Notes: generated by a model not told the origin, from the sequence alone. A DNA stretch of 64,000 nucleotides from a bacterium (GCA_024233545.1 JACKPL010000003.1:64584-128583); one strand, 5' to 3'; positions 31,761 through 48,568 are shown, counted from the stretch's first letter. Translations and numbers: made by a program.

Positions 31761-32359
31761 GTCTTTCCTATTTCGTGTTGAGCAAGTTGCAGGATATAGC
31801 GCAAATGTGAAATATCTTCAACAAACCATCGCTTTTTTATCAAATGGGTAATGAATCCGACTGCGCCGACAAAAATCCCTACGACTGTGGTAGAGAAGGC
31901 TACCTGCATATTAACCGCCATCGATGCGATGTTGCCCACCGCCAATCCGACAAGAGCTGGCCCCATGGGTATCAGTGTTCCCATCAATCCGAGCATAGGG
32001 CCGAGCCGGACAAGCGTTTGGGACGATTCAAGCGATTTTGCGCCGGCTATCTCATAATCATCGATGATTTTATCTGCGTGCGGTGATTGCCAGCGGACAC
32101 GTTTCATGTTTGCCAGCGGCAGAGATAAGTGGTTTTCTGCTGAGAGCTCAGATTCGAAAACAATTGATTGTACCGGTGTATGCCGGAGTGTTTCCAGCAG
32201 GTCGGAAAATTTTTTCCCGTTCGAAAGGCGATGCATATAAATTCCGTAAAATGAACCTGCCATAAATAATGCCCAAATGAAACACCACAATAGCGCAATG
32301 ATGACTGGAATAAGGAGTCCGGAAGAAATCCAAAACAAACTGTTTGTTAATATGCTCAT
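31733..32359 (-). CDS. MotA/TolQ/ExbB-family proton-channel-like protein (second copy, divergent)
   Basis: 208 aa. ..LVRLGPMLGLMGTLIPMGPALVGL..MQVAFSTTVVGIFVGAVGFI resembles the ExbB/TolQ channel helices. Overlaps both neighbours. Confidence 0.7.
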   Translation of the reverse strand: MSILTNSLFWISSGLLIPVIIALLWCFIWALFMAGSFYGIYMHRLSNGKKFSDLLETLRHTPVQSIVFESELSAENHLSLPLANMKRVRWQSPHADKIIDDYEIAGAKSLESSQTLVRLGPMLGLMGTLIPMGPALVGLAVGNIASMAVNMQVAFSTTVVGIFVGAVGFITHLIKKRWFVEDISHLRYILQLAQHEIGKTCETTANII

Positions 32360-33213: not shown

Positions 33214-33439
33214 CTTTAGAGATGCGTAAAGCATTGCAAAAAAACAATTTGAAAGTCATATCTATCTTCTGAAAAGCAGGATAGATTATTTGCTTTTAGG
33301 TGGGAACAAGAATTGCGTATCCCTTGATGAATAATCATGAAATAAAAATACATTGTATTGGTCACAGAAACTTTTAAAATTTGATTTTTTTTTCAAAAGA
33401 GAAGAATTTTTATATAAATCCATATTTAAAAGGAGAAAT

Positions 33440-36400
33440 ATGATGAATACAGTAGGTGGTACAAGGGGTGGATATCCGCCTATAGTGAAATCTGTTTATT
33501 GTCTTTCTTTTTTCCTCTTGCTTATCCTTTCAGCTTCCTCCGTTTTCCCCATTGATTTAAGCGTAACAGGAACCACAACTTCAATCGATTCGGTACGTTC
33601 ACAGGTACAAGGTACTAATACTGCGGGAACAAGTTCGGTCAGCGTAGCCAATGGATCGTTATTTACTGTTGGCGCACAGGTGTTTATCATCACGATGCAG
33701 GGCAGTTCCATCGGTGAATATGAGTTCAATACAATAGCCGGCATCTCTTCCAATACGTTGAATTTGCAGAATGTCCTCTCCCACACCTATGGAACAAGCG
33801 CTCAGGTAATCCAAGTAACGGAATACGGAACGGTAACTGTTTCCAACAGCGGTATTCTGACCTGCTCAGATTGGGATGGTTCGACTGGCGGTGTCTTAGT
33901 GATAAAAGCCTCTGGTGTGGTAGTTGATTCAACGAGTTTTATAGATACTTCAGCAAAAGGTTTTCTCTCTACAACAGGCACGGGTGCAGGAACTTCCGCT
34001 ACAAGTAGCAATGGCGCCGGCGGCGGAGCGTACGGCGGCGATGGCGGTGACGGTTACAGCGGGTATGCAGGCGGTACGGGCTATGGATTGATTCATCAGC
34101 CGGCCTGCATGGGGTCTGCCGGCGGACGTAATACGACATACAGCAATAACGGCGGCGACGGCGGTGGAATCGTTTTTATCGAAGCGAGCGGGACAGTGAC
34201 GGTCAACGGTGTTATCCGGAGCAATGGGCAGAATTCTCCAAACAGCCATTCTTATAACGGCGGTGCCGGAGCCGGCGGGTCGATTTTCATTTCTGCCGCT
34301 TCCATAACGGGTACCAATGGGGCGTCATATATGGAAGCATCCGGTGGATCGAATAATTCGACAAGCTATCGCGGCGGCGGTGGCGGCGGCGGGCGTATTG
34401 CCATCCATTGTGCCGCAGGGTCATATTCTTATTCCGGAGAACTCAAAGCATTTGGCGGTAGCGGGTACAACGGTTTTTACGGTGGTGCCGGAACCATTTA
34501 TACAAAAAAAGGCACGGATGAAAATATCGATATCGTCAACATCGATTATAACTGCGATTATACACAATTGGCTCATGATGGCACGGATATTTCAGTCAAT
34601 GTTATGTACGTCGAATGGGCTCGGTTGAATTATGTCAATTTTGAAGGGTGTACCATCCTCGATGTGCGTAACAGTGATTTGACTCTGAACCCTTCTTCAG
34701 ATGCTGAATTCGACACAGTTGTTTTTGCGGTCGACTTGTCAGGAACCCGAACGCTTGCCCTCGCTCAAAATGTGACAGTTAATACGGTTACCGTTGCAGG
34801 ATTGAACGAATCGAACCATGCAAATCTCACGCTTTCGGGCGGAACCAATATTACTGATAAAATCAACTTGAACGGCTATACATCGCTGACAAATAGTACC
34901 GACATGGCGGTTCCGGTAAAAATTTATTTAAGCAATAATGATAATGATATTACGAATAATGCGGGCAACCATTTGCGGTTTGCTAACTTTGAACTCGGAA
35001 ATAATTCCAATTGCACTAATAATGGCACGATAGAAGTATTAAATGACCTGATTTCTGTTCCAAACGGCAGTATCATTCAAGGTTCCGGTTCGTTTTATGA
35101 TAACGACAATAACCTTATTGTATATTCAGGCGGAACATATGTGTCTCAAACAGCTGATGCCGAATACTTTAATAATATAGAATTTCAGTCCGGCGCAACA
35201 GTATATCATCTTGGTAACTCGACGGCGGAGTCGTATAAACTTCATTTTGTATGTAGCGGCAACTTTACTATTCAGGACGGGGTAACCATTGATCTTACCG
35301 GTAAAGGATATCGGTACGCAAGCGGTCCCGGTGCAGGAAACGATGCATTGTATTATTCCGGATGCGTATACAATCATTATTCATACAATTATTATTACAA
35401 TGGCGGCGGCGGCGCGGCTCACGGCGGAAATGGTTCTGATGCCTACCAGCTCAGCGGGAACTATGGAAAAGGCGGAGACCAATATGGTGATATTTCCAAC
35501 CCTGTTAATATCGGTTCAGGCGGTGGAAACGGTAAATATACTTATCTTGGATATGCGTACTATGCCTGCTATTCTGTAACCACATATCAGGGCGGTTACG
35601 GCGGTGGTGCGTTCATTGCTGATATTGCTGGGACATTTACCTTAAACGGAACGATTAAAGTCAACGGGACAAACGGCACTTCCGGTTCAGGTAATGCATC
35701 AGGCGGCGGCGGCGCAGGCGGATCGGTGAATATTTCATGTAATGATTTTATCGGTACGAATGTATCGGCGAGTATTGAAGCCAACGGCGGTAGCCGGTAT
35801 TCCGGACAATACGGCGGCGGTGGTGCCGGCGGACGCATTTCAATAAAAGCCGATTCATCGTATTCTTTTGCCGGTTCTTTATCCTCTTACGGCGGTAACG
35901 GCAAAGGAACGAGCTCTTCTTCAAGCTATACTGTATACGGCGGCGCAGGAACGATCTATGTAAAAAATGGTTCGCAAGATTCATTGACAGTCAAAAATGC
36001 AATTACCCAAACGGACTTTATTACCAGCGATTTAACCACGATTAACGACTCGGAAATTCTCCAAGACGGAACCGTGCTTGATCTTCAAGGTGTTAATGTC
36101 GATATGACGGTTGGGATGTCTGTCAATACGGTGAGCATCATCGATTCCCAAGTAAACGCCGCAACAGCATCTGATATTACCATCAATACGGTTACGGTTT
36201 CTACCCCATCCACCCGCAACAGCACCTTCCATTTAGGAAGTGTTACGGGAAATGTTTCGATTACCACCATGAACGTTACCGGCTACAATGCTTCATACCG
36301 CGGGCAATCTACCGTGCCGGAAAACAGCATACTTATGTATTTGGAACTCAACGGATATACAACAATATATAATTACGGCACTATTGCAACCGCTGTTCTT

Positions 36401-39400
36401 AACAATACCGATAACGACATTTATAACTATTCAAGCGGTTCCATAGGATTTCCCGTTTTGATTATCACAAACGGGAGTACATTTTTCAATGCTGGGATTT
36501 TTGCCGTCGGCGATAACAACCTGACAGTAGAAAGCGGCGGTACATTTCAATCTCAAACCGCCGCCCCCATGACGTTCAATACGGTATGGATTAAAAACGG
36601 CGCGACGGTTACACAATCCGCATCAACGGCATCCAACGAGTATAAAATATATTTTATATGTACAGATTTTACCTTGGAACAAGGCGCAACAATCAACGCA
36701 AGTTTTAAAGGTTATCCGAACACACAAGGACCGGGTAAAGGTATGTCTACCTCGTCATCCAGTTACGGTGCCGCGGGCGGTTCGTATGGCGGTAACGGAA
36801 GCAACGGATATAATGTTGAAGTAGAATGCGAGGGATACGGTTTAATAACTGATCCGGTATATGTCGGTTCGGGCGGCGGCGACAATACCTATAGTTCCCT
36901 TTCCCGCGGCGGATACGGCGGCGGCGCAGTAATTCTTGAAGTAGCAAACACGGCGGTTATCAATGGATATATCTATGTAAACGGAGAACCTGCATCAAGC
37001 GGCGGGACTTCGCGCCATGGCGGCGGCGGTTCAGGCGGTGCAGTTAATATCGAAGCCGCAAATATCTCACTCGGTTCGACAGCACGGTTGGAAGCAAAAG
37101 GCGGTAGCCGCTATTCGTCATATAACGGCGGCGGCGGCGGCGGCGGGCGTATTGCGTTGAAAGCTTCCTCGAGCATGACAATCGATCCGAGTTCGGTTGT
37201 TGAATATTACGGCGGGCAAGGATACAACTCGATTTACGGCGGCGCAGGGACATACTATACGAAACTTGGATCGGTTGAAAAACTCTTTATTCAAGGAACA
37301 AATCAAAATCGCGCTCAGACAATAATAGACGATACTGCCGAACCGATTAACCTTACGTTGCTCTCTTTGAATCAAGCTACCGTCGATCTCCTTTCGCTGA
37401 CTGGATGTACTGAATTGCAGGTAGTCAACACCGACCTTATGTTTCTGCCGACAAACGCTATAACGATTGATACCGTAGCTATTTCCCTCGTTTCGTCTGC
37501 GTTGAATAATAGGCGTTCAACATTCGGCGCTTTGGTTGATATGGCTAATGTTACTGTCCAAGGATACAATGCTTCCCGCCATGCTGAACTTGAACTGGTA
37601 AACGGCGCTGATATTACAGCAAGCCTGCAGACAAACGGATACACAACAGTATACAATAATACTTCGATAAACCTTCCCGCAACATTTACTATGTCGGGGA
37701 CAGACAACGATATATATAATTATTCTTCAGGAATTATCATATTGCCGACATTTGTCGTATCTGCCAACTCCTATGTTCAGGATTTCGGAACGATTACGCC
37801 CGTTGACACTAATCTCACTATCAATAGCGGCGGAATATATGATATCGCAAAAAATGCAACTCTAACATATACCAATGTAATAGTGAGCGGAACCCTGACG
37901 CATACTCAGGATACTGCAAACAACTGCGATATCGACATAATTTGTACAGGCAACCTTACCGTTTCCGGAACGATCGATGCTTCCGGCAGGGGATATGTGC
38001 AGGATGACGGCGCAGGCAAAGGGACAAGCACCTCAAACAGTAGTTACGGCGGCGGCGGCGCAGGGCACGGCGGACGCGGTTCCGAAGCATATAGCGCAAT
38101 AAGCGGCGGTTCTCAATACGGAGTCATAAAACATCCCGTTACTTACGGTTCAGGCGGCGGTTCAAATACCTATTACAATTATCTCGGCGGTTCGGGCGGC
38201 GGGCGAGTCAAGCTTGTTGTTGCGGGGACTGCTACTGTTCAAGGTACTATCAAGACAAATGGAATAAGCGCACCGAATGGCGGTAGTTCGCGTTCGGGCG
38301 GCGGCGGATCGGGCGGAAGTATCTGGATTGATACTTCAGTTTTAACCGGAACCGGTTCTATACAATCCAACGGAGGCGACAACTATTCTTCTTCATCATA
38401 TTATGGCGGCGGCGGCGCGGGCGGGCGGATAGCAATCTATACAAGTTCCAGCAACTCTTTCAATGACAGTCAATATATCGCTTCAGGCGGTAGAGGGTAT
38501 AATAATTTCTACGGAGCCGCCGGAACAATTTATGTCAATAATAACGCAGTTGAAAGTCTCATCGTGAAAAACAGTTCTACTTCTCAAAGAGAATTGACTG
38601 TTATAGAGAATGACAACGAAACCCCGTCTGATCTCGAAATATTTAAAATCCAAAATGCAAATATCCAGATTGATAAACTGGCAACTGTATCGATGATGGA
38701 TGTTGACGATTCCGATGTCAATCTTAACCTTTCTGCGGCATGTAGTATTAACCAACTTGATTTTGTTGTAGGCGTTGCGGTAAGCAATAGAACACTTACC
38801 GTGCCGGCAATGGCTGATATCGTATCGCTTATGTTCGATGGGCATAATTCATCGTACCGCGCTATTGTTACCCTTGCGGACGGTGTCGATATCACAAATT
38901 CAATTACTTTGAACGGTTATACGACACTTCATAATTATACGGTCATAAACCTGCCGTATGGTTTCCATATGAATAATACGGATAACATTATTTATAACTA
39001 TGGCACCGGCCATATTACTTTTGCATCCTTAATCATAAGCGGCACGGCGATTCATAATGATGGGACAATCGTGAGCCAAGATAAAACAATCACAATCAAT
39101 AGCGGCAGTACTTTCTACGTCAACAGCCAGATGCCCTTACCCGACTATGATTTGATTGTGAATTCCGGCGGAACATATTTCTGCCAGACTGCTGTACCGA
39201 TTCAATTCCGTCACGTCACCGTTAATACCGGCGGAATAATGACGCATGATTCGAATACGAATACGCCTGCATATAAATTAGCATTTGACTGTTCAGGAAA
39301 CTTCACGCTCAATACCGGCGGTTTAATAGATGTGAACGGCAAAGGATATACGTATGATCAAGGCCCCGGCAAAGGCACTCAGCCGACAAACAGCTCCTAT

Positions 39401-42400: not shown

Positions 42401-45400
42401 GCCGGAACAGTCTATATTAAGGTAGGCGGCAACGAACAATTACGGATTGTCAACGATTCCAATTATTACCAAGCTCCTACCCCTCTCGAGGTTCCTTTGA
42501 ACATTGATATGCTGTGGCTCGATAGAGCGGTTGTAATTCTTGATAATGAAGGAATGGCATTCGATACTGTTTCGGTATTAAATTCGCAATTGACTATCGA
42601 TACCGTCGGCAATACTTCTATTTCCGATCTGAACATAACTCAAAACACCACGCAGTACAATAGTTACCATACAACATTAGGCGAAAATGTGACAGTGCAG
42701 AATGCAACGACATATAGTACGAGCACCTCATATTATGCATATTTTACACTAGAAGAAGGTGCGGCGGTTGCAAATAACCTTACTATGGGCGGCAACTCAT
42801 ATGTTTATAACCACGGTTCTATCGGAGGCTTAACAAGGACTGCCGGACGGACATACAATTTACTCTATAACTATGATACTTCCACCATAACCGCAGCAAA
42901 CCTTAATCTCAATTCATACGATTATTTTCTTTATGACGGAACTGTAACGGTTGTCGATGCATCTCTTATGGATTTGCAGTCATACAGCACACTGGAATTT
43001 GCTTCAACCAGCCAGCTTGTTATCGATTCGGTGAGGGTTCGAGGCAACGCGCTCATAACCCATACCGCTAATGATAATTCAATAGAATCAATGGTTAATA
43101 TCCTCTGTTCCGGCGATTTCCAAATCGACCAGAACGGTAAGGTAGACGTTACCGCAAAAGGATATGCCGCAGGCAACGGGCCCGGACAAGGAACCGATGC
43201 TGAAACCGGTTTTAGCAACACGGGCGGCGGCGGCGGCGCATACGGCGGAAATGGCGGGCATCCGTACCGGTTTGCCAATGAAGGCGGTGAACGAGGCATT
43301 GCCTATGACAATGATTCTGTTAAAAATCCCCTTAATTTCGGATCAGGCGGCGGCGCAGGGTACCGTACCGCAACACCTTACTATGGAGGCGCTGGCGGCG
43401 GATTGATAAAATTGAACATCGGCGGAGCATTAAAATTAGACCGCAATTCATATATCCTTGCAGATGGCGCCAGTGCCACAACCGGTTCTTCCAGTACGTG
43501 CGGCGGCGGCGGTGCGGGTGGCGGAATCAATATCACGACGGCAACGCTCAGCTTTATCGGTACATCCGGGCAAGCATATATTGAAGCGGACGGTGGAAAC
43601 AGGTATTCGAGCTTCTACGGCGGCGGCGGCGGCGGCGGAAGAATTCATATCGGTTATCAAGCGTTCCCTGCTCCTGCGAGTTTCAGCATTCATGCGACAA
43701 AAGGAACAGGGTACTATACCGATGCGGCAAACGGCCCTGCAAACGGTACCGTCGATATCGCGGCAGACCCTGCCGGTACAATTACCGTTCTTGCTAGCCC
43801 TTCAACACTGCATGCCAACAGCAACGAAGTATCACATATAACAGCCGGCCCAGTGCGCGATTTTGTTGGACAGACAGTTGGCGACGGCACGGAAATTACA
43901 ATTGGCGCTACAAACGGTACAATTCTAAATGCCGCAGATATAAATCTTATTGAGCCGGGAATCCAATTATATACTGTCAGCGGATATGTCTATTTTGATC
44001 TGAAAGCGACTATCGGCACCCAGGCAGGAACCATTACGGTGAGCGCTGATTCCGTAGTCGGTTCAGCGGCAGGCGAGACAATGGTTTCCGTTGTTGTCGG
44101 CAATCCGACAGGAACGATTACCCTTACTCCAACACCTGCGCAAATTACAGCGGACGGATCGACGACGGCAATCATAACCAGCAACGCCTTGCATGATGAG
44201 TTCGGCAATACAATTCCTGCCGGACAATATGTTACGGTAAGCACTAACCGCGGCACAATTACAACTCCAGATGCGACAGGCACTATTGCCGGAAAACAAG
44301 TTGCTGTTCTCGCTGACGGAACGATTTCTTTTGTAATACAGAGCAGTACTAATGCCGGCAATGCGCTCATTTCAGCCGACTCACATCTCGGCGATGCGTA
44401 TGGTGAAGTTACGGTAAGCATGATACCCGGAGAACTGGATAAATTGATTGTGCTTATGCCGGGAGAATCATACAGTAAACCTGCGGGTTCGGGGAAAACC
44501 GGTGTTCCGTCGAACCGAACTGCAGGGTCAAGTTATATCGTAACTATAATGGCAGTCGATGAATACAATAATATTATCACTTCCAATACAGATACAGTAG
44601 AGCTTATCTCCAACCAAGAATTTTCAAATGTGTCTCCTTCTCAGCAAACATTCAACGGTATCAGCGGGCAAATGACTTTTTCTGTTACCGAATACATTGC
44701 CGATAGCGGAGTTATGCTTACCGTCAACAATATTTCAAATAGCGCGTTCAATACAACAAGCAGTGCGTATACTATCGGTAATGCGGTGCCTGCAAAACTG
44801 CAAATTCTGATGCCGGGTGAAACACTCTATTCCGGTTCGCCGACGGGTAAAACAGGCACGGCTGTCCATCAACGCGCCGGCCAGCCGTTTAACATTTATA
44901 TCAATATGGTTGATGCTTTTTTTAATATTGTTCAAGGGAGAAACGATACGGTAACACTTACTTCAAATGGCCCGAATGCTGTTTTGCCGGCAGTACAACT
45001 TGTTAACGGTACAGATTACGTCACCGTAACCGAAAACGATTTGAGCGGCGGTTTGACACGGCAGTTATCCGCATCGGTAACCGACCCGCAGATTAGCGAT
45101 GCCCAAAGCGTATTGTTCGGCGTGTTCAATTCTATTCCGAGTATCGTTTCGGTTGTTCCCAATGAATCTCGTCCGGGAATTACCAAAATTCTCACTGTTT
45201 CAGGTACGGAGTTCAGCAATGGCGCAACCGTCGAGTTTATCGGCGGAGGAATAGATGTGAACGACGTTACTTTTGTAGGCAACAGCGAATTGACGGTAAC
45301 TGTCTATGTTCAGCCTTCAGCGGCGGTTGGATATCGTGACGTTCGCATAATAAATCCCGATATGGCGGATGATGTCGGTTCCGCTATGTTCCGCGTGTGG

Positions 45401-48400
45401 GACAACGAATCGCCAGCCATTGCCAATCTTTCCGTGCCCTCAGGTGCGACAACTGGCGATACGGTCGTTGTTTCTTTTGACGTAAACGAATTGTTGGCGG
45501 CGAATCCTGTGGTTACAATAGACGGAAATACTATTGGCGCTCCAACACAGATCAGCAACGGAGGATTAACCTACACCTATGAATACATGGTGAACGGTTC
45601 TGAAAACACAGGATATGTGGAAGTTATTGTAACAGCGCAGGATTTTGTCGGAAATACCAGTCAGGCAAAAACGCATGTTATTTTCGATTTCAACGATCCG
45701 TCTCTCAGCAACAAAGTAATCGATCCTGTAACAATATCTCCTGACGGGGATTTTGTGAATGATGCGGCAAATATTGCGTTCAACATCGTCGATGAAAGTT
45801 CCTATTTTGATGTCACGGTAACCATCCAGAGCGGATTGACTCCTATCCGTCAACTTTGGGATGGGCAAGTTAACGGCAGGTATTTTACGAGAACATGGGA
45901 TGGCAAAGACGATTTCGGCAGTTCTGTGCCGGACGGCATCTATCTCGTTAAAGTTACCGTTACCGACCCTGCAAATAATTTTGTAGAGGAAAATATCGGA
46001 TCGATTACTGTAGATTATACCGCTGACCAACAGCCGTATATTGTGTTTGTCGAAGAAGTTCAGTTTGCTAACGTCGGCAACGGAGTGTTCAGCCTTCCTA
46101 TCTCCTTGATAAATAATGACTTGATTGACGCACACACGCTTACTGTTCTTGATGTAATCAATACGGATATGTCGGTGGATGTACATTTCACTACAAATCC
46201 CGGTGGTGTAACAATACCTGCAATGCTCGATAACGATGTACTGTTATATGTAGATTCATCAAACCCTGATTATGACCGTGTTGATGTCCAGCTGAAACTG
46301 GTTAACGAAATGGCAGACCAAATAGATTACGCAAATCTGAGAATCTACATGAATCCGGTTCCGAAACCTGATTTAGTGGTTACTGCGCAGGATGTAACAT
46401 TTAATCCCGTCAATCCGGGGGCGGGGGTCAATACGACGGTGTCGGTTACTGTTAGAAACGTAGGCAATGAAACAGCTTCGAACATCGTTGTTGCATTATC
46501 CAGTTTCGGTTCGCCAATCGGTTCCGGAACGATAATTATATCATCGTTGGCAGGCGGTGAAGACATAACGATAAATGATACTATTGTTTTTGCATCTGAA
46601 GGGCTGAAACTAGTGAATATCCAAATTGACCCTTCCGATGCGATAGATGAACTCGACGAATTTAATAACGAAGTAAATAAAATCATCCATGTCGGCATAG
46701 TTCCTTTGGTTTCGGGCGGTATTCGCGTTTTGGCGGACGTTCCTCAGCAGTCTTTAGCAAATAGCGTTATAACTGTTTCGGGAAGAGCTGATTATGCCTT
46801 GCTGATAAATGATGTCCCGAATTATGATTATCCTGTAAAAGGAGCGACAATTTATCTCCAAGTAAAAAATACCGACGGCGATGTTCTGCTCAGCCAAACC
46901 GGTTGGTTTACAACAGTTACCGGCGATTTCGATTTGTCATTCAAACTCCCTCCGGATTTCAGCGCCGGAGAATATGCGCTTGTGAGAATTACCGTTACGG
47001 ATCATACATTTGTTGGGGTGACGCAAGTTGCAACCTACATTTATGAATTGCTAACACCCACTGCGCTGGAACCGGATTCGCCTGATGTAGATAATGACGG
47101 AATTATGAATATCAACGACCCTGATATAGACGGTGACGGTATTCCCAATGAAACCGATCCTGATATAGACGGCGACGGTATTCCCAATGAACATGATATT
47201 GTTGTATATGGGCCTATTGCAGGCGATCCCGACAGGGACGGCGACGGCATCCCAAATTATTATGATGATGATATAGACGGTGACGGCATTCCGAACGGAA
47301 GCGACCCAAGCCCATACGGAAGCGGCGGGTTCGGAGGATACGGGACCGGATATGGCGGCGGTTTTGGAAGCGGTAGCGGTAGCGGATACGGCGGTGGGTT
47401 TTCCGGAAGCGGCGGGTTCGGCGGATTCGGCGGCGGAAACGGTTTTGGCGGCGGCGGAGCAGGGTTCAGTATACCTCAGGGCGGGAAAGTCGTTACCGGT
47501 ACTGGTGAGAGTTCCGGAGGGTATTCCGGCGATCCTATAACAGTCACCCCGTCTCTTTATGATGCCTATGTACATTCAAGAGATATTGCATTCAGCAACG
47601 AAAATCCGCAAGTTGGCGAGGAAATAACAATCAGTACTGTTGTGTGGGCGGAAGGGTATGGATACAAAGATCTCATTCCCGTTTCGTTCTACGAAATATA
47701 CCCGACGTACAGCGAAACGCGCATTGGCTTTGAACACTATATTTCACGGTTGTATGCCGGAGCAAATAAATCTCTCGCGACATCATGGACAAACTTTGCT
47801 GAAGGCGTATACATTATTGAAGTTCGGATGGATCAAACATATACCGATGCATGCAATGAAAATAACGAAGCGTCACGGGCAATTATAGTCGGCGAACTCA
47901 ATCAACTGCTTGATGTAATCATCAATCTGCCGGTTGACGGTATGACGTATCATTGTATGCGGGATGTGATAACGATAAAATTCGAAGTGCTGAACGGATT
48001 TACAAAGCTTGCGCCGCAAGACCTCGATACTCTTGTCCTTAAATTCAGCGATTCCATGGCGTTGGTTTCGGATATTATTGTGGTGCAGGGAGGAATATTG
48101 AAGGCAGGAACGTTTAATCCCTCTAATTATGTATATACAGTATCTATTCAGGCGCCTGTTCCGTTGACCGCACCGATCGGCAATCTTTATCCGGGAACGA
48201 TAGAGGCTATTGCTCAGGTGGTTGATAATGATACGGTTCTTAACGGTTCGGACAGTGTCGGCATCAATCTTACGGCAGGTGCGGTTCCTCCCGGTTCAAT
48301 TGATGTATTTGCAACAAGTTATGCTGTTCAAATTACATGGCCTGAAGAAACAGGTATCACTGAATATAATGTATACCGCAATGATTCGACACTTGCTACG

Positions 48401-48568
48401 GTCGAAGAAACGCAGTTCCAAGGGACATTCACCTTCATTGATTATTATGTGACGATGCTCCAAACCTATGAGTATTTCTGTACTTCTATCGATACCATGA
48501 CTGGCAAAGAAGGAATCATTTCGTCTCCCATTATCAATAAAACGGTTCCGGTAAGGAGGAGACGATAA
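33440..48568 (+). CDS. giant (~5,040 aa) secreted/surface protein: eight glycine-rich beta-helix-like modules plus an Ig-like, IPT, FlgD-Ig-like, CARDB, TSP3-like and Fn3-like tail
   Basis: Uninterrupted 15.1-kb ORF. ATG 33440 is preceded by AGGAG (33431-33435); the track start 33353 is less likely. Signal peptide SVYCLSFFLLLILSASSVFP. Domain motifs are listed under the findings. Confidence 0.9.
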   Translation: MMNTVGGTRGGYPPIVKSVYCLSFFLLLILSASSVFPIDLSVTGTTTSIDSVRSQVQGTNTAGTSSVSVANGSLFTVGAQVFIITMQGSSIGEYEFNTIAGISSNTLNLQNVLSHTYGTSAQVIQVTEYGTVTVSNSGILTCSDWDGSTGGVLVIKASGVVVDSTSFIDTSAKGFLSTTGTGAGTSATSSNGAGGGAYGGDGGDGYSGYAGGTGYGLIHQPACMGSAGGRNTTYSNNGGDGGGIVFIEASGTVTVNGVIRSNGQNSPNSHSYNGGAGAGGSIFISAASITGTNGASYMEASGGSNNSTSYRGGGGGGGRIAIHCAAGSYSYSGELKAFGGSGYNGFYGGAGTIYTKKGTDENIDIVNIDYNCDYTQLAHDGTDISVNVMYVEWARLNYVNFEGCTILDVRNSDLTLNPSSDAEFDTVVFAVDLSGTRTLALAQNVTVNTVTVAGLNESNHANLTLSGGTNITDKINLNGYTSLTNSTDMAVPVKIYLSNNDNDITNNAGNHLRFANFELGNNSNCTNNGTIEVLNDLISVPNGSIIQGSGSFYDNDNNLIVYSGGTYVSQTADAEYFNNIEFQSGATVYHLGNSTAESYKLHFVCSGNFTIQDGVTIDLTGKGYRYASGPGAGNDALYYSGCVYNHYSYNYYYNGGGGAAHGGNGSDAYQLSGNYGKGGDQYGDISNPVNIGSGGGNGKYTYLGYAYYACYSVTTYQGGYGGGAFIADIAGTFTLNGTIKVNGTNGTSGSGNASGGGGAGGSVNISCNDFIGTNVSASIEANGGSRYSGQYGGGGAGGRISIKADSSYSFAGSLSSYGGNGKGTSSSSSYTVYGGAGTIYVKNGSQDSLTVKNAITQTDFITSDLTTINDSEILQDGTVLDLQGVNVDMTVGMSVNTVSIIDSQVNAATASDITINTVTVSTPSTRNSTFHLGSVTGNVSITTMNVTGYNASYRGQSTVPENSILMYLELNGYTTIYNYGTIATAVLNNTDNDIYNYSSGSIGFPVLIITNGSTFFNAGIFAVGDNNLTVESGGTFQSQTAAPMTFNTVWIKNGATVTQSASTASNEYKIYFICTDFTLEQGATINASFKGYPNTQGPGKGMSTSSSSYGAAGGSYGGNGSNGYNVEVECEGYGLITDPVYVGSGGGDNTYSSLSRGGYGGGAVILEVANTAVINGYIYVNGEPASSGGTSRHGGGGSGGAVNIEAANISLGSTARLEAKGGSRYSSYNGGGGGGGRIALKASSSMTIDPSSVVEYYGGQGYNSIYGGAGTYYTKLGSVEKLFIQGTNQNRAQTIIDDTAEPINLTLLSLNQATVDLLSLTGCTELQVVNTDLMFLPTNAITIDTVAISLVSSALNNRRSTFGALVDMANVTVQGYNASRHAELELVNGADITASLQTNGYTTVYNNTSINLPATFTMSGTDNDIYNYSSGIIILPTFVVSANSYVQDFGTITPVDTNLTINSGGIYDIAKNATLTYTNVIVSGTLTHTQDTANNCDIDIICTGNLTVSGTIDASGRGYVQDDGAGKGTSTSNSSYGGGGAGHGGRGSEAYSAISGGSQYGVIKHPVTYGSGGGSNTYYNYLGGSGGGRVKLVVAGTATVQGTIKTNGISAPNGGSSRSGGGGSGGSIWIDTSVLTGTGSIQSNGGDNYSSSSYYGGGGAGGRIAIYTSSSNSFNDSQYIASGGRGYNNFYGAAGTIYVNNNAVESLIVKNSSTSQRELTVIENDNETPSDLEIFKIQNANIQIDKLATVSMMDVDDSDVNLNLSAACSINQLDFVVGVAVSNRTLTVPAMADIVSLMFDGHNSSYRAIVTLADGVDITNSITLNGYTTLHNYTVINLPYGFHMNNTDNIIYNYGTGHITFASLIISGTAIHNDGTIVSQDKTITINSGSTFYVNSQMPLPDYDLIVNSGGTYFCQTAVPIQFRHVTVNTGGIMTHDSNTNTPAYKLAFDCSGNFTLNTGGLIDVNGKGYTYDQGPGKGTQPTNSSYGGGGAGYGGDGSDAYNNTVSAGQGGSAFGQLNNSTELGSGGGSTYNGTYGNGSAGGGAVILDIAGTLTLDGTIRANAADVTSGSSSRCGGGGAGGSVHMQASVITGTNTSAIIESKGGKRYSSYYGGGGAGGRIALICTTYSYSGDFNAAGGQGYYKNGGTGTVYIEDSAVKHVKVIGSLPSSSSIPEYELTPIKDNDSVPSIVATYEIDSANVEINKLQTCETMTLIDADVNINTSSTCTINTATHTVHNNTYKHRRITCQPNTVIKDFTAQGTVTSYHAELELINGSSIKDHLATNGYTTLYNYTTITLPSAPNDFSRSGTDNDIYNYETGNITLPTLVVTQYSYIQDFGVITPVDTDLTIDNGGTYDIAKNAALTFTDVIVNGTLTHTQNTTSGYKIKLVVTNGCTVGATGLIDAVGKGYGSEQGPGAGANQNVSNSSYAGGGGAYGGWGGKSYNNLANTNPPYGSLTNPVDYGSGGGRNTYYSFPAGSGGGIVDITVAGSLTVSGTIRCDGSNSDQKGGGGSGGSIKLVTNILTGTSTGMIASNGGNKYTYGGGGSGGRIAVYCNSNSYAGQFQASGGDGYNHSTNRYGGAGTVYIDANGSKTIQVKNTYSGYKAPTIIDNDAAIPATVENYIIENADLTVKKLTGCTSMSVKDSIIVFDNIGVANITNMTVQGSNTSYGKSVVTIPASMSITNQMILNGYSLLNNYGQINLLQLNNNYNDVYNYTGAVAAAPTLDLHQYSNFANYGAFSIQDGNLVIGNASTYTVTDKTQLTFNNVTIQSGGILTHLPNTNQELYKVNIYCTGNFDIQSGGKIDVSAKGYSASEGPGAGSDISTSSYGGGGASYGGLGSQGYSNVAAGVSYGSISNPTDLGSGGGTNTYQNYQGGAGGGAVILDVDGTFTINGYIYADGGTPSTLTTYNGGGGSGGSVNITATTLNGSGYIYAKGAYNGSTGYYGGGGGGGRIAISCAANNHSYPDRFQAYGNYGRSTGTYYRGGAGTVYIKVGGNEQLRIVNDSNYYQAPTPLEVPLNIDMLWLDRAVVILDNEGMAFDTVSVLNSQLTIDTVGNTSISDLNITQNTTQYNSYHTTLGENVTVQNATTYSTSTSYYAYFTLEEGAAVANNLTMGGNSYVYNHGSIGGLTRTAGRTYNLLYNYDTSTITAANLNLNSYDYFLYDGTVTVVDASLMDLQSYSTLEFASTSQLVIDSVRVRGNALITHTANDNSIESMVNILCSGDFQIDQNGKVDVTAKGYAAGNGPGQGTDAETGFSNTGGGGGAYGGNGGHPYRFANEGGERGIAYDNDSVKNPLNFGSGGGAGYRTATPYYGGAGGGLIKLNIGGALKLDRNSYILADGASATTGSSSTCGGGGAGGGINITTATLSFIGTSGQAYIEADGGNRYSSFYGGGGGGGRIHIGYQAFPAPASFSIHATKGTGYYTDAANGPANGTVDIAADPAGTITVLASPSTLHANSNEVSHITAGPVRDFVGQTVGDGTEITIGATNGTILNAADINLIEPGIQLYTVSGYVYFDLKATIGTQAGTITVSADSVVGSAAGETMVSVVVGNPTGTITLTPTPAQITADGSTTAIITSNALHDEFGNTIPAGQYVTVSTNRGTITTPDATGTIAGKQVAVLADGTISFVIQSSTNAGNALISADSHLGDAYGEVTVSMIPGELDKLIVLMPGESYSKPAGSGKTGVPSNRTAGSSYIVTIMAVDEYNNIITSNTDTVELISNQEFSNVSPSQQTFNGISGQMTFSVTEYIADSGVMLTVNNISNSAFNTTSSAYTIGNAVPAKLQILMPGETLYSGSPTGKTGTAVHQRAGQPFNIYINMVDAFFNIVQGRNDTVTLTSNGPNAVLPAVQLVNGTDYVTVTENDLSGGLTRQLSASVTDPQISDAQSVLFGVFNSIPSIVSVVPNESRPGITKILTVSGTEFSNGATVEFIGGGIDVNDVTFVGNSELTVTVYVQPSAAVGYRDVRIINPDMADDVGSAMFRVWDNESPAIANLSVPSGATTGDTVVVSFDVNELLAANPVVTIDGNTIGAPTQISNGGLTYTYEYMVNGSENTGYVEVIVTAQDFVGNTSQAKTHVIFDFNDPSLSNKVIDPVTISPDGDFVNDAANIAFNIVDESSYFDVTVTIQSGLTPIRQLWDGQVNGRYFTRTWDGKDDFGSSVPDGIYLVKVTVTDPANNFVEENIGSITVDYTADQQPYIVFVEEVQFANVGNGVFSLPISLINNDLIDAHTLTVLDVINTDMSVDVHFTTNPGGVTIPAMLDNDVLLYVDSSNPDYDRVDVQLKLVNEMADQIDYANLRIYMNPVPKPDLVVTAQDVTFNPVNPGAGVNTTVSVTVRNVGNETASNIVVALSSFGSPIGSGTIIISSLAGGEDITINDTIVFASEGLKLVNIQIDPSDAIDELDEFNNEVNKIIHVGIVPLVSGGIRVLADVPQQSLANSVITVSGRADYALLINDVPNYDYPVKGATIYLQVKNTDGDVLLSQTGWFTTVTGDFDLSFKLPPDFSAGEYALVRITVTDHTFVGVTQVATYIYELLTPTALEPDSPDVDNDGIMNINDPDIDGDGIPNETDPDIDGDGIPNEHDIVVYGPIAGDPDRDGDGIPNYYDDDIDGDGIPNGSDPSPYGSGGFGGYGTGYGGGFGSGSGSGYGGGFSGSGGFGGFGGGNGFGGGGAGFSIPQGGKVVTGTGESSGGYSGDPITVTPSLYDAYVHSRDIAFSNENPQVGEEITISTVVWAEGYGYKDLIPVSFYEIYPTYSETRIGFEHYISRLYAGANKSLATSWTNFAEGVYIIEVRMDQTYTDACNENNEASRAIIVGELNQLLDVIINLPVDGMTYHCMRDVITIKFEVLNGFTKLAPQDLDTLVLKFSDSMALVSDIIVVQGGILKAGTFNPSNYVYTVSIQAPVPLTAPIGNLYPGTIEAIAQVVDNDTVLNGSDSVGINLTAGAVPPGSIDVFATSYAVQITWPEETGITEYNVYRNDSTLATVEETQFQGTFTFIDYYVTMLQTYEYFCTSIDTMTGKEGIISSPIINKTVPVRRRR
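33560..43770 (+). repeat. array of eight divergent ~1.2-1.44-kb coding modules inside the giant gene
   Basis: The GGGG(A/G/S)GGRI(A/S/H) motif recurs at nt ~34391, 35831, 37144, 38425, 39793, 41083, 42296 and 43638. Each copy has the same ordered flanking motifs (..C.G.F....G..ID..GKGY...GPG.G; GGGGAGGS(V/I); GGAGT(I/V)Y). Confidence 0.85.

What the first reader, a model, noticed from the sequence alone, without database searches (positions are those of the whole stretch)
33440..48568. 15-kb gene for a ~5,040-aa surface protein built from eight copies of an unassigned ~430-aa glycine-rich module
After a signal peptide, the protein repeats one complex module eight times, with a period of 1.21-1.44 kb. 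Each module has the same ordered motifs:
- An Asn/Thr-rich strand-like segment (NGYT.L.N.., TDNDIYNY..).
- YK(I/L).F.C(S/T)GNF(T/D)(I/L)..G..ID..GKGY...GPG.G.
- YGGGGA.(G)G.G.
- P...GSGGG.
- GG.GGGA(V/I)IL(D/E)(V/I)..T..(V/I)NG.I..NG.
- GGGG(A/S)GGS(V/I).
- GG.RYS..YGGGGAGGRIA(I/L).
- YSG...A.GG.GY...GGAGT(I/V)Y.

What it is not, and what it weakly resembles:
- It is not RTX (no GGxGxD nonapeptides), collagen-like or PE_PGRS-like.
- The recurring GGA(V/I) resembles Pmp-type beta-helix repeats only weakly.
- The first module begins with a ..VFIITMQGSS.GEYEF...I......L.L...L...Y......IQVTEYG.VTV.. segment that I recall from other large bacterial surface proteins.

The tail (43.8-48.6 kb) strings together Ig-like domains, two KL..LMPGE..G.GKTG domains, an IPT/TIG domain, a FlgD-Ig-like domain, two CARDB-like domains, TSP3-like repeats and an Fn3-like end.

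The module has a conserved Cys and a very regular Gly pattern. This suggests a defined fold, possibly a wide beta-helix, rather than low-complexity sequence.
Basis: partly seen in the sequence, partly recalled or inferred. Interest (0 to 1): 0.7.

Follow-up and report, generated by a model that had tools for sequence, protein, structure and literature searches.

The report
Giant glycine-rich beta-helix surface protein
This is a real 5,042-residue secreted protein from an uncultured bacterium; its eight repeated modules are predicted to fold into one long beta-helix rod, built around a very widespread glycine-rich domain that has no Pfam entry, no solved structure and no known function.

Summary
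The ORF at 33440-48568 is intact and encodes 5,042 aa with a signal peptide and eight diverged modules (30-50% identity, 404-480 aa). A profile built only from foreign homologues finds exactly eight copies and none in locally shuffled controls. DNA repeats are short and diverged, and other assemblies carry collinear parts of the locus at over 99% identity, so it is not an assembly artefact.

AlphaFold2 models of module 5 (pLDDT 90, pTM 0.83) and module 1 (85, 0.84) are beta-solenoids. Each module has a narrow Asn/Thr-rich helix followed by a ~255-aa glycine-rich core with turns of about 33-39 residues. Module 1 replaces the spacer with a small beta-barrel cap, as in phage tailspikes.

The ~255-aa core is the true evolutionary unit:
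- It matches 18,497 cluster representatives across many bacterial phyla and some archaea.
- It has no Pfam model and no detectable relative of solved structure.
- Its only named relative is NCBIfam's Myxococcus AgmC N-terminal domain, matched far below cutoff.

A 52%-identical orthologue keeps all eight modules one-to-one. It also keeps two neighbours: a PEP-CTERM protein and a NIDO/TSP3 protein.

The best reading is an extracellular adhesive or cohesive fibre of a Candidatus Auribacterota-like bacterium. The function is inferred, not shown.

The parts
33430..33435 (+). Shine-Dalgarno sequence AAGGAG upstream of the ATG at 33440
   Evidence: Read directly from the sequence.
33440..48568 (+). 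Giant gene: 5,042 codons plus stop
   Evidence: The same gene is called with a 5,041-aa product on an independent 49-kb contig. A full-length 52%-identical orthologue, P0134, exists.
33440..33547 (+). N-terminal Sec-type signal peptide (aa 1 to about 36)
   Evidence: The sequence has a basic n-region followed by the hydrophobic stretch VYCLSFFLLLILSASSVF. The orthologue has a canonical ..FFCGNALA/ADLQ site. No predictor tool was available, so this is inferred.
33557..33859 (+). Head: small beta-barrel cap (aa ~40-140; 'VFIITMQGSS.GEYEF...IQVTEYG' segment)
   Evidence: - The AF2 model of module 1 places strands at aa 55-134.
- Foldseek matches of 76-82 columns at rmsd 2.5-3.5 A hit beta-barrel domains of phage tail-tube and tail-tip proteins and of V/F-ATPase subunits.
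- The sequence profile weakly hits the same 9n71 and 4ru4 entries.
- The segment aligns to positions 97-191 of NF047640 AgmC_N.
- It is present in orthologues L006-L010 and L017.
33887..34522 (+). Gly-rich core domain, copy 1 (aa ~150-361)
   Evidence: external profile, 156 bits.
34523..35203 (+). Module 2 Asn/Thr-rich beta-helix spacer (aa 362-588)
   Evidence: N+T+S 33%, Gly 7%.
35204..35962 (+). Gly-rich core domain, copy 2 (aa 589-841)
   Evidence: 147 bits.
35963..36517 (+). Module 3 spacer (aa 842-1026)
36518..37276 (+). Gly-rich core domain, copy 3 (aa 1027-1279)
   Evidence: 162 bits.
37277..37795 (+). Module 4 spacer (aa 1280-1452)
37796..38554 (+). Gly-rich core domain, copy 4 (aa 1453-1705)
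   Evidence: 195 bits.
38555..39166 (+). Module 5 spacer (aa 1706-1909)
   Evidence: The AF2 model of module 5 shows strands recurring with starts 17-25 residues apart and pLDDT mostly 81-96. The exception is a module-specific insertion at model residues ~160-200, where pLDDT is 60-78.
39167..39925 (+). Gly-rich core domain, copy 5 (aa 1910-2162)
   Evidence: In the AF2 model, three-strand turns start at model residues 340, 378, 415 and 445. A strand-free Gly-rich stretch at residues 260-339 has pLDDT 89-98. The external profile scores 197 bits.
39926..40456 (+). Module 6 spacer (aa 2163-2339)
40457..41215 (+). Gly-rich core domain, copy 6 (aa 2340-2592)
   Evidence: 188 bits.
41216..41668 (+). 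Module 7 spacer (aa 2593-2743)
41669..42427 (+). Gly-rich core domain, copy 7 (aa 2744-2996)
   Evidence: 210 bits.
42428..43009 (+). Module 8 spacer (aa 2997-3190)
43010..43768 (+). Gly-rich core domain, copy 8 (aa 3191-3443), the most diverged copy
   Evidence: 147 bits.
43769..48565 (+). C-terminal tail of 1,599 aa, made of Ig-like and Ca-binding domains:
- Invasin_D3-like, ~44111-44377
- two 'LMPGE..GKTG' domains, ~44417-45133
- TIG / CoaZ-repeat, ~45137-45349
- FlgD_ig-like, ~45731-45967
- CARDB, 46364-46678
- four or five TSP3 DxDxDGxPN repeats, 47084-47314
- Gly/Phe/Ser low-complexity linker, 47315-47479
- weak second CARDB, ~47591-47869
- Fn3-like end with an Arg-rich terminus, ~48272-48565
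   Evidence: - Pfam hits:
  - CARDB, 54.8 bits.
  - TIG (18.3) and Qn_am_d_aIII (22.4), about at cutoff.
  - TSP_3, 25.7 bits against a cutoff of 25.
  - Invasin_D3, FlgD_ig and a second CARDB, below cutoff.
- NCBIfam CoaZ_rpt_PGGG scores 31.1 against a cutoff of 30.
- PDB FlgD matches at E=0.004.
48568..49656 (+). Downstream 362-aa protein with a signal peptide and a PEP-CTERM-type C-terminus (..VIPEP-LSVFMLFSAVIGLFV-KKSKK). Its ATG overlaps the giant gene's stop codon. It is a conserved partner.
   Evidence: One search gives the sequence. A 55%-identical 331-aa gene lies 31 nt downstream of the orthologous giant gene and has the same IPEP+TM+basic end. The NCBIfam PEP_CTERM model itself did not score on this protein, so the motif is read by eye. 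It matches the annotated PEP-CTERM protein at 6915-8099.
49815..53249 (+). Conserved partner of 1,144 aa, with CarboxypepD_reg-like, NIDO and bacterial TSP3 repeats
   Evidence: Pfam hits are. A 44%-identical 1,127-aa gene sits next to the orthologous giant gene, upstream there. It also weakly hits the CglD model: 49.9 bits against a cutoff of 400.

Best explanation
**What it is.** The gene encodes a Sec-exported, fibre-like extracellular protein of an uncultured diderm bacterium, most likely Candidatus Auribacterota (PVC group).

**How it is built.**
- After signal-peptide removal, a small N-terminal beta-barrel caps a very long beta-solenoid rod of about 3,400 residues.
- The rod consists of eight modules. 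Each module is a narrow Asn/Thr-rich beta-helix stretch followed by a wider ~255-aa glycine-rich beta-helix domain.
- In that domain each turn has three short strands plus a glycine-only arc (GGGGxGG). Small residues pack where side chains would not fit.
- The rod is followed by a 1,600-residue stalk of Ig-like, CARDB, Ca2+-binding TSP3 and Fn3-like domains.

**How it likely works.**
- The protein has no membrane anchor of its own.
- I infer that it is held on the cell surface through two co-inherited partners. One is a PEP-CTERM (exosortase-sorted) protein encoded immediately downstream. The other is a NIDO/TSP3 protein.
- I infer that it acts as a long adhesive or cohesive fibre: cell to substrate, cell to cell, or matrix scaffolding.
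- It does not look like an enzyme, because the family conserves almost only Gly and core-packing residues.

**Shown here.** Gene integrity, the eight-fold architecture, the predicted fold, the size of the family, the lack of family assignment, and conserved synteny.

**Inferred.** Export, surface retention through the partners, and the adhesive role.
For: **Gene and repeats.** The ORF is intact and has an RBS. An external-only profile finds eight modules and no hits in shuffled controls.

**Fold.**
- AF2 models of module 5 (pLDDT 90.3, pTM 0.83) and module 1 (85.4, 0.84) are all-beta with short, regularly spaced strands.
- Strands reach both ends of the module 5 model, which is consistent with a continuous solenoid.
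- The nearest PDB folds are right-handed beta-helix adhesins (Ag43, TibA, EtpA, tapirin, Fap2) and 'beta-barrel plus beta-helix' tailspikes.

**Conservation pattern.** Across the family, 49 conserved Gly columns stand against 19 other conserved columns. Those 19 are aliphatic residues, Ala, Ser, Thr, Tyr, Pro and one Arg. No acidic column is conserved in the core.

**Family.**
- It has 18,497 representatives at E<=1e-3.
- The 150 best-scoring representatives are 1,200-7,100 aa long and carry 4-12 tandem copies, most often 5-8, which start near the N-terminus in many.

**Orthologue.** P0134 is 52% identical in one collinear alignment over 5,050 columns, with one-to-one module correspondence. 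The length and order of the array are therefore under selection.

**Partners and cell type.**
- The conserved trio with the PEP-CTERM protein and the NIDO/TSP3 protein sits in otherwise different neighbourhoods.
- TonB, ExbB and a TonB-dependent receptor nearby indicate a diderm cell.

**Tail.** It contains Ig-like, CARDB and TSP3 domains typical of surface proteins.

**Named relative.** The only one is the N-terminal domain of a Myxococcus adventurous-gliding protein, AgmC.
Against: - There is no experimental evidence of any kind.
- Localisation rests on a signal peptide judged by eye.
- No recognised anchor or secretion signal is present. There is no T9SS CTD, autotransporter barrel, TPS domain, LPXTG or PEP-CTERM on the giant protein itself.
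- No exosortase gene is in the window.
- Model coordinates could not be inspected, so handedness, continuity between modules and the conformation of the Gly arcs are not verified.
- Foldseek TM-scores to known beta-helices are low (0.2-0.38), so 'adhesin-like' is an analogy of class only.
- The best structural E-values are to enzymes (tailspike depolymerases).
Confidence: 0.6

Rival explanations
1. The beta-helix array is catalytic. On this reading the protein is a giant secreted polysaccharide depolymerase or lyase of the tailspike / CASH (pectate-lyase-fold) type, used to degrade capsule, EPS or algal glycans.
For: - The module 1 model's best PDB matches are phage tailspike depolymerases (LKA1 gp49, K64-1 S2-4, P560, AP22 gp54, KP34p57; E 7e-6 to 6e-4) and GH110 glycosidases. 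These share the 'small beta-barrel then beta-helix' layout.
- PL6 alginate lyases and chondroitinase B appear among the weak hits for module 5.
- A published ~6,000-aa Auribacterota-related protein was interpreted as carbohydrate-degrading because of its CASH domains (PMC12057145).
Against: - No acidic or other plausible catalytic residue is conserved in the core. Of the conserved columns, 49 are Gly, and the others are core-packing residues plus one Arg.
- There is no Pfam, NCBIfam or CAZy-type hit to Beta_helix, pectate-lyase, PL or GH families, even at E<=10.
- TM-scores are about 0.2.
- Eight tandem copies of one domain are more typical of a structural rod than of an enzyme.
Confidence: 0.12
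2. It is a functional counterpart of the Myxococcus adventurous-gliding surface proteins. On this reading the protein is an AgmC-like substratum adhesin that works with a CglD-like Ca2+-binding partner to give traction for surface motility.
For: - NF047640 (AgmC N-terminal domain) matches module 1 at E=1.9e-22 over both head and core, and matches 16 of 52 family members.
- The co-conserved 1,144-aa neighbour hits the CglD model through its TSP3 region (E=1.1e-13).
- CglD is described as a Ca2+-dependent adhesin at focal adhesions (bioRxiv 10.1101/2023.10.19.562135).
- MotA/ExbB-family genes lie nearby.
Against: - Both hits are far below the equivalog cutoffs (79.8 against 275 bits; 49.9 against 400 bits).
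- The CglD similarity lies in generic TSP3 repeats.
- The nearby ExbB, TonB, TonB-receptor and CobN genes form an ordinary uptake cluster, which is absent from the orthologous locus.
- No Glt/Agl machinery was seen in the window.
- Nothing on AgmC's mechanism could be found in the held literature.
- Motility of Auribacterota is unknown.
Confidence: 0.1
3. The flat, side-chain-poor Gly arcs and the Thr/Asn ladders bind a periodic surface such as ice, mineral or crystalline polysaccharide. Alternatively they zip rods together into a coat or sheath. On this reading the protein is a surface-lattice or crystal-binding protein rather than a point adhesin.
For: - The spacers contain regular Asn/Thr-rich strands (N+T+S 30-37%).
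- Highly regular Gly runs recur every 33-39 residues.
- One weak Foldseek hit is to an ice-binding protein, and there are hits to self-associating Ag43/TibA.
Against: - There is no specific similarity to any ice-binding, S-layer or curli family. Those hits have E>2 or are generic.
- The surface geometry could not be inspected.
- The taxonomic spread shows no obvious restriction to one kind of organism, but habitats were not examined.
Confidence: 0.06
4. It is not a real feature. On this reading the ORF is a low-complexity or mis-assembled repeat region, or a pseudogene.
For: The source is a short-read MAG. The sequence is Gly-rich (14% overall, 22-27% in the cores).
Against: - The 15-kb frame contains no stops.
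- The DNA repeats are at most 83 nt long and 60-85% identical.
- Other assemblies agree over the parts of the gene they cover.
- A 52%-identical orthologue is collinear end to end.
- Shuffled controls give no hits.
- The AF2 models are confident.
Confidence: 0.01

Closest known systems
N-terminal domain of Myxococcus xanthus adventurous gliding motility protein AgmC (NCBIfam NF047640, gliding_AgmC_N, 412 positions)
   Same: It is homologous at the sequence level. Module 1 matches in two stretches, the best one aligning the head to model positions 97-191, at E=1.9e-22. Module 5's core aligns to positions 243-400. In total 16 of 52 family members hit the model. It is the only curated model that touches this domain.
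   Different: The score is 79.8 bits against an equivalog cutoff of 275, so this protein is not AgmC. Here the core is repeated eight times, interleaved with Asn/Thr spacers, and followed by a 1,600-aa Ig-like tail. I could find no structure or mechanism for AgmC in the held literature.
Passenger beta-helices of self-associating autotransporters and TpsA adhesins (Ag43 7kob/7ko9, TibA 4q1q, EtpA 8cpk)
   Same: These are the best PDB fold matches for a whole module.
   Different: The matches are weak (E 3.5e-3 or worse, TM 0.24-0.38, about 10-13% identity). This protein has no autotransporter barrel or TPS domain. Its Gly-rich turns are about 33-39 residues long, each with a strand-free Gly arc.
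Phage tailspike depolymerases (e.g. LKA1 gp49, 4ru4) and GH110 glycosidases
   Same: They share the 'small beta-barrel followed by a right-handed beta-helix' layout of module 1 (E 7e-6 to 6e-4, prob 0.9-1.0). The head profile also weakly hits 4ru4 and tail-tube 9n71 by sequence.
   Different: TM is about 0.2. No catalytic residues are conserved. There is no evidence of trimerisation. tblastn found no match in 50,697 phage genomes, with the low-complexity filter on.
Chlamydial polymorphic membrane protein (Pmp) repeats, GGA(I/L/V) and FxxN
   Same: Both are Gly-initiated beta-helix rungs. In this module, GG(A/S/R)(V/I) starts four strands.
   Different: Pfam Chlam_PMP gives no hit at E<=10. There are only 5 GGA[ILV] and 11 FxxN motifs in 5,042 aa, and they do not alternate. 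The rung length also differs.
ALK/LTK-type glycine-rich domain (Pfam PF12810; polyglycine-II lattice) and other PGII proteins
   Same: Both have long runs of Gly (GGGGxGG) that are confidently modelled yet carry no DSSP strand or helix (model residues 260-339, pLDDT 89-98). This was my own lead from memory.
   Different: It was tested and not met. There is no Pfam hit, no ALK/LTK chain in the profile-versus-PDB search at E<=10, and none in either Foldseek PDB search.
RTX / PE_PGRS beta-roll repeats (GGxGxD nonapeptides)
   Same: Both are glycine-rich beta-solenoids.
   Different: There are only three isolated GGxGxD motifs and no tandem nonapeptides. No Asp is conserved in the core.

Membership tests
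AgmC (NCBIfam NF047640 gliding_AgmC_N, equivalog domain) | Score at or above the curated cutoff of 275 bits for the 412-position N-terminal domain model | tested here: not met
   The best score is 79.8 bits (module 1). Module 5 scores 17.3 bits. This indicates a homologous domain, not an equivalog.
AgmC (NCBIfam NF047640 gliding_AgmC_N, equivalog domain) | Role in adventurous gliding motility, with Glt/Agl machinery present | not testable with these tools
   Only 64 kb of an uncultured MAG is available. No Glt/Agl genes were seen in the window.
Unnamed ~255-aa Gly-rich beta-solenoid domain family (defined here by profile A2) | Ordered motifs GKGY..GPGxG / YGGGGxGYGG / YG..P...GSGGG / GGxGGGA(V/I)xL / NG..GGGGxGGS(I/V) / GGGGxGGRIA / GGAGT(I/V)Y over about 255 aa | tested here: met
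   All eight copies match a profile built without window sequences, at 147-210 bits each. The family has 18,497 representatives at E<=1e-3.
Unnamed ~255-aa Gly-rich beta-solenoid domain family (defined here by profile A2) | Tandem arrays near the N-terminus of large secreted proteins | tested here: met
   There are eight copies here. The 150 best-scoring representatives carry 4-12 copies, and the array starts near residue 1-40 in many of those inspected. The ~430-aa spacing is atypical: about half of the measured periods are 240-280 aa.
Right-handed parallel beta-helix / pectate-lyase-like (CASH, PbH1) superfamily | Sequence match to Beta_helix, PbH1, pectate-lyase, PL or GH28-type models | tested here: not met
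   No Pfam hit at E<=10 for 4 modules or at E<=1 for 52 family members.
Right-handed parallel beta-helix / pectate-lyase-like (CASH, PbH1) superfamily | Three-stranded solenoid fold superposable on known members | tested here: inconclusive
   Foldseek's top hits are all beta-helix proteins, but with TM 0.2-0.38. No PDB hit reaches E<=1e-3 for module 5, and 10 do for module 1.
Chlamydial Pmp repeat proteins (PF02415) | Alternating GGA(I/L/V) and FxxN tetrapeptides, and a Pfam match | tested here: not met
RTX / beta-roll | Tandem GGxGxDxUx nonapeptides with a conserved Asp | tested here: not met
   There are three isolated motifs and no conserved acidic column in the core.
ALK/LTK-like glycine-rich domain (PF12810) | Pfam match, or sequence or fold similarity to ALK/LTK GRD structures | tested here: not met
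Autotransporter / two-partner-secretion adhesins | C-terminal beta-barrel translocator, or N-terminal TPS domain | tested here: not met
   No such Pfam or NCBIfam hit anywhere in the protein. The C-terminus is an Fn3-like domain that ends ..VPVRRRR.
PEP-CTERM / exosortase substrates | C-terminal PEP motif, then a TM helix, then a basic tail, on the protein itself | tested here: not met
   The motif is absent from the giant protein. It is present by eye on the gene immediately downstream and on the gene at 6915-8099. TIGR02595 scores only on the latter.

The most novel reading that the evidence does not exclude
The ~255-aa glycine-rich core may be a structurally new class of beta-solenoid. One side of each 33-39-residue turn would be a side-chain-free, polyglycine-like arc, stacked turn upon turn, and 70-80 consecutive residues would form ordered coils with no regular beta or alpha structure. 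If so, it defines a large unrecognised domain superfamily of more than 18,000 sequence clusters in bacteria and some archaea, with possible structural relatives in giant viruses. The Gly face would be the working surface, either for homotypic zippering of fibres or for binding a periodic substrate. Together with the co-inherited PEP-CTERM and NIDO/TSP3 partners, it would form a previously undescribed cell-surface fibre system.
Probability: 0.3. Interest if true: 0.7.

Novelty: new variant of a known kind. Interest (0 to 1): 0.5.

Why it matters
Giant beta-helical surface proteins are common, so the gene as such is not surprising. What is useful is the domain.

- A ~255-aa glycine-rich beta-solenoid unit matches about 18,500 sequence clusters.
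- It occurs in many bacterial phyla (PVC group, Desulfobacterota, Myxococcota, Bdellovibrionota, CPR and others) and in some archaeal MAGs.
- The 150 best-scoring family proteins carry 4-12 tandem copies, most often 5-8.
- It has no Pfam model, no solved structure and no assigned function.

Defining this domain would:
- annotate thousands of 'hypothetical' giant proteins;
- link them to the little-studied Myxococcus AgmC;
- give structural biologists a compact target with an unusual, confidently predicted non-alpha, non-beta Gly-rich segment.

The conserved trio (giant protein, PEP-CTERM protein, NIDO/TSP3 protein) is a testable hypothesis for how anchor-less giant proteins are held on the surface. 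Cultured carriers of the domain exist (Microbulbifer sp. SA54 and Gilvimarinus algae), so experiments are possible.

Tried and rejected
**Hypotheses tested and rejected.**
- ALK/LTK glycine-rich domain or polyglycine-II lattice (my own recollection). There is no Pfam hit, no PDB profile hit and no Foldseek hit.
- Pmp, RTX and collagen-like readings, rejected by motif counts and Pfam.
- Catalytic beta-helix. I looked for conserved acidic columns across 52 family members and found none in the core.
- Assembly artefact, rejected by DNA repeat analysis and independent contigs.

**Searches that led nowhere.**
- PDB sequence search with module 5, and with the 52-sequence profile, gave nothing meaningful.
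- The word-indexed homologue search with the head alone found nothing. With a 10-sequence head alignment it found only 8 short fragments. In all three word-indexed searches the listed hits were at most 840 aa, so this tool missed the giant relatives. The unindexed representative search was needed to find them.
- The search for related loci with the 52-sequence alignment failed for lack of a conserved stretch. The eight-module alignment worked.
- tblastn of a core domain against phage and plasmid collections gave no match, but the low-complexity filter probably masks the query, so this is weak evidence.
- Literature searches for AgmC found nothing relevant. The Auribacterota papers I read do not mention this protein.

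**Technical limits.**
- Model coordinates are not exposed. Handedness, rod length and the geometry of the Gly arcs could not be measured.

Full report
**1. The observation**

The window holds one uninterrupted + strand ORF from 33353 (first TTG) to 48568. The ATG at 33440 follows an AAGGAG Shine-Dalgarno sequence at 33430-35 and gives 5,042 aa.

The motif GGGGxGGRI recurs at aa 312, 792, 1230, 1656, 2113, 2543, 2947 and 3394. This cuts the first 3,443 residues into one module of 361 aa and seven of 404-480 aa, a period of 1.21-1.44 kb. Pairwise identities are 30-50%.

A profile built only from 44 foreign homologues finds exactly eight significant domains in the protein (147-210 bits, iE 1e-46 to 4e-65). 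It finds none in 20 shuffles that preserve local composition. So this is neither chance nor low-complexity sequence.

At the DNA level the longest direct repeats in the gene are 83 nt or less and 60-85% identical. Four other contigs are collinear with the window at 99.4-99.9% identity. One covers the last 10 kb of the gene plus 11 kb downstream, and the others cover its last 2-3.8 kb. On the first of these, a 49-kb contig, the gene is called with a 5,041-aa product. An assembly artefact is therefore excluded for practical purposes.

**2. Source and surroundings**

Exact look-ups place the window on a 257.7-kb contig of an NCBI MAG labelled only 'bacterium' (locus tags H7A34_*). The closest relatives of a whole module (47-68% identity over 457 aa) are in Candidatus Auribacter fodinae, a Candidatus Auribacterota MAG and unclassified MAGs. 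A member of that PVC-group phylum is the likely source.

The window is chromosomal, since it carries dnaX and recR. The upstream genes on the opposite strand are an ordinary uptake cluster: two MotA/ExbB-family proteins, DUF2149, a 1,634-aa CobN chelatase, a TonB-dependent receptor, TonB and an ABC importer. This implies a diderm cell.

Downstream on the same strand lie two further genes.
- A 362-aa gene has an ATG that overlaps the giant gene's stop codon. Its C-terminus (..VIPEP, hydrophobic helix, KKSKK) has the PEP-CTERM pattern.
- A 1,144-aa protein carries CarboxypepD_reg-like, NIDO and bacterial TSP3 repeats.

**3. Family search**

No Pfam model matches any module, even at E<=10. None covers the core in 52 family members. 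Only G8 touches the flanks of three of them.

NCBIfam gives one lead, NF047640, the N-terminal domain of Myxococcus adventurous gliding motility protein AgmC.
- It matches module 1 at E=1.9e-22 (79.8 bits against a cutoff of 275) and module 5 at E=0.0017.
- It matches 16 of 52 family members.
- This shows homology, not equivalence.

A profile of the eight modules retrieves hundreds of 'hypothetical' proteins. It runs from about 'GGxLTH..YK..F.CsGNF' to 'GGAGTVY', and in most relatives it is repeated back to back with a 250-280-aa period. The Asn/Thr-rich ~180-aa part is a spacer typical of the Auribacterota-like clade and a minority of others.

An exhaustive HMMER search of 1.84 billion cluster representatives finds 18,497 proteins at E<=1e-3 and 6,405 at E<=1e-30. 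The 150 best-scoring ones carry 4-12 copies in proteins of 1,200-7,100 aa.

A scan of species-representative genomes shows the domain in many groups:
- Planctomycetota, Verrucomicrobiota, Lentisphaerota and Elusimicrobiota;
- Desulfobacterota, Myxococcota and Bdellovibrionota;
- Armatimonadota, Chloroflexota, and Patescibacteria/Saccharibacteria;
- two cultured gammaproteobacteria, Microbulbifer sp. SA54 and Gilvimarinus algae;
- a few archaeal MAGs.

**4. Structure**

*Module 5.* AlphaFold2 on module 5 (aa 1706-2162) with a 52-row alignment gives mean pLDDT 90.3 and pTM 0.83.
- The model is all-beta with short strands throughout, that is, a solenoid.
- In the spacer, strand starts recur about 17-25 residues apart.
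- In the core, three-strand turns start at model residues 340, 378, 415 and 445. This gives 30-38 residues per turn, matching the 33-39-residue spacing of Gly runs in all modules.
- Model residues 260-339 contain the motifs GKGY..GPG, YGGGGAGYGG and GSGGG. They have no DSSP strand or helix, yet pLDDT is 89-98.
- Strands reach both termini of the model, consistent with a continuous rod across module borders.

*Module 1.* A second model (aa 36-361, 35 rows) gives pLDDT 85.4 and pTM 0.84 and reproduces the core pattern.

*Fold comparisons.*
- Module 5 against the PDB has no hit at E<=1e-3. The best hits are generic right-handed beta-helix adhesins (Ag43, TibA, EtpA, tapirin, Fap2) with TM 0.24-0.38.
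- Against viral predicted structures, five hits reach E<=1e-3. They include giant-virus 'collagen-like' proteins at probability 1.0 but TM of 0.3 or less.
- Module 1 against the PDB hits phage tailspike depolymerases and GH110 enzymes (E 7e-6 to 6e-4; TM about 0.2).
- The head also gives tight 76-82-residue matches (rmsd 2.5-3.5 A) to small beta-barrel domains of phage tail-tube and tail-tip proteins and of V/F-ATPase subunits.
- The head's sequence profile independently ranks the same tail-tube (9n71) and LKA1 gp49 (4ru4) entries first, though weakly.
- The head is therefore a beta-barrel cap preceding the helix, as in tailspikes.
- No solved structure shares detectable sequence similarity with the core profile.

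**5. Conservation pattern**

Across 52 family members, 49 conserved columns are Gly. The other 19 conserved columns are aliphatic residues, Ala, Ser, Thr, Tyr and Pro, plus one Arg (the R of GGRIA). No acidic column is conserved in the core. This is the signature of a fold-determining scaffold, not of an active site or a Ca2+-binding beta-roll. The 'conserved Cys' is present in 6 of 8 modules but not in the wider family.

**6. Evolutionary stability and partners**

P0134 is a 4,985-aa protein from 'Bacterium isolate R3-B46' and a JGI metagenome. It aligns with the window protein in a single collinear BLASTP segment of 5,050 columns at 52% identity. Wherever P0134's modules could be delimited, module i best matches module i (372-514 bits on the diagonal against 146-358 off it). 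Two modules remained merged and one was not delimited, but the overall collinear alignment and the matching domain spacing cover all eight. An Auribacterota MAG orthologue shows the same eight-copy spacing, and that MAG also holds a paralogue with a ~375-aa period. The array is therefore old, and its length and order are maintained.

The orthologous locus sits in a completely different neighbourhood of arsenic and thioredoxin genes. It nevertheless keeps a 331-aa gene directly downstream. That gene is 55% identical to the window's 362-aa gene and has the same IPEP+TM+basic end. The locus also keeps a 1,127-aa NIDO/TSP3 protein (44% identical), there upstream. The three genes thus form a conserved set.

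**7. Tail**

The last 1,599 aa hold the following:
- one strong CARDB domain;
- TIG/Qn_am_d_aIII, TSP_3 and 'choice-of-anchor Z repeat' matches at about cutoff;
- sub-threshold Invasin_D3, FlgD_ig and second-CARDB matches;
- four or five DxDxDGxPN repeats;
- a Gly/Phe/Ser low-complexity linker.

The Fn3-like end is not confirmed by Pfam. No anchor or secretion signal is recognisable. Both orthologues end in an Arg-rich tail.

**8. Interpretation**

*Shown:*
- a real, conserved giant gene;
- an N-terminal signal peptide, judged by eye here and canonical in the orthologue;
- a beta-barrel cap;
- eight beta-solenoid modules, each a narrow Asn/Thr helix plus a wide Gly-rich helix;
- an Ig-like and Ca-binding tail;
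- two co-inherited partners.

*Inferred:*
- The protein is exported by Sec.
- It forms a rigid rod plus a flexible stalk.
- It is retained on the surface through the PEP-CTERM and NIDO/TSP3 partners.
- It works as an adhesive or cohesive fibre.

I give this reading about 0.6.

*Rivals:*
- a tailspike-like glycan depolymerase (0.12), supported by the fold hits but weakened by the absence of any conserved catalytic residue;
- an AgmC/CglD-like gliding adhesin pair (0.10), resting on two far-sub-threshold model hits;
- a lattice or crystal-binding coat protein (0.06);
- an artefact (0.01).

**9. Comparison with known families and novelty**

The protein works like the long beta-helical surface adhesins, but it fails the membership tests for autotransporters and TPS proteins, Pmp, RTX, ALK-type glycine-rich domains and CASH/PbH1 sequence families. 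It shares a domain with AgmC without being AgmC.

The kind of protein, a giant beta-solenoid surface protein, is known. The Gly-rich core is an unassigned, very large domain family with an unusual predicted turn architecture. I therefore rate it a new variant of a known kind, with moderate interest (0.5).

The most novel reading still open (p about 0.3) is that the core is a structurally new solenoid class with an exposed polyglycine-like face, and that it forms an undescribed surface-fibre system with its two partners.

The main limitation is that model coordinates could not be inspected and nothing here is experimental.

Noticed in passing
window 48568-49656 (+): This 362-aa gene has an ATG that overlaps the giant gene's stop codon. 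It encodes a signal peptide and a PEP-CTERM-like C-terminus (VIPEP, then a TM helix, then KKSKK). A 55%-identical gene lies 31 nt downstream of the orthologous giant gene in a different neighbourhood. The NCBIfam PEP_CTERM model did not score on it, and no exosortase gene is in the window.
   Followed up: partly
window 49815-53249 (+): This 1,144-aa protein has CarboxypepD_reg-like, NIDO and bacterial TSP3 repeats and is co-conserved with the giant gene (44% identical copy in L080). It weakly hits the Myxococcus CglD model (49.9 bits against a cutoff of 400), while the giant protein hits AgmC_N. Both models are named after adventurous-gliding proteins.
   Followed up: partly
window 54898-56379 (-) and 56294-56995 (-): These two overlapping ORFs (493 and 233 aa) correspond to a single 680-aa gene on the independent contig L001 (16331-18373). 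The two sequences differ by 2 gapped bases in this stretch, so the window carries a frameshift, which may be a sequencing error, a strain variant or a pseudogene. The gene has no Pfam or NCBIfam assignment.
   Followed up: partly
window 11436-18308 (+): This 2,290-aa ORF's only recognisable domain is a single ABC-transporter ATPase at aa ~1600-1820, with weak HlyB-like similarity. The remaining ~2,000 aa are unassigned.
   Followed up: no
window 48530-48565 (C-terminus of the giant protein); P0134 C-terminus: Both orthologues end, after the Fn3-like domain, in a short Arg-rich tail (..TVPVRRRR and ..TIPTRDRR). No known sorting signal matches it, so it could be a retention or recognition tag.
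   Followed up: no
L006 and L010 (same contig CAXXKF010000010.1, Candidatus Auribacterota MAG): One genome carries two paralogous giant genes with the same beta-barrel head. One has the eight-module ~430-aa spacing, and the other has at least 6 copies at ~375-aa spacing.
   Followed up: partly
L031, L039, L073, L079 (archaeal MAGs); L030 (Microbulbifer sp. SA54); L047 (Gilvimarinus algae): The Gly-rich core domain also occurs in Methanosarcinales, DPANN-type and Aenigmatarchaeota MAGs, and in two cultured marine gammaproteobacteria. In L030 there are six core copies, the first starting at about aa 214 of a partial ORF of at least 2,364 aa. The cultured strains could serve as experimental hosts.
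   Followed up: partly
Foldseek against BFVD with the module 5 model: 'Collagen-like' proteins of Pandoravirus and Orpheovirus and a Bathycoccus virus PA14 protein match at probability 1.0 over ~310 columns (17-21% identity, TM of 0.3 or less). This hints that giant viruses carry related Gly-rich beta-helix domains.
   Followed up: no
window 22082-33042 (-): This is a TonB-dependent uptake cluster containing two MotA/ExbB-family genes (23321-24109 and 31733-32359), DUF2149, an unusually long 1,634-aa CobN-type chelatase, a TonB-dependent receptor, TonB and an ABC importer. It is not conserved next to the orthologous giant gene, so it is probably unrelated to it.
   Followed up: partly
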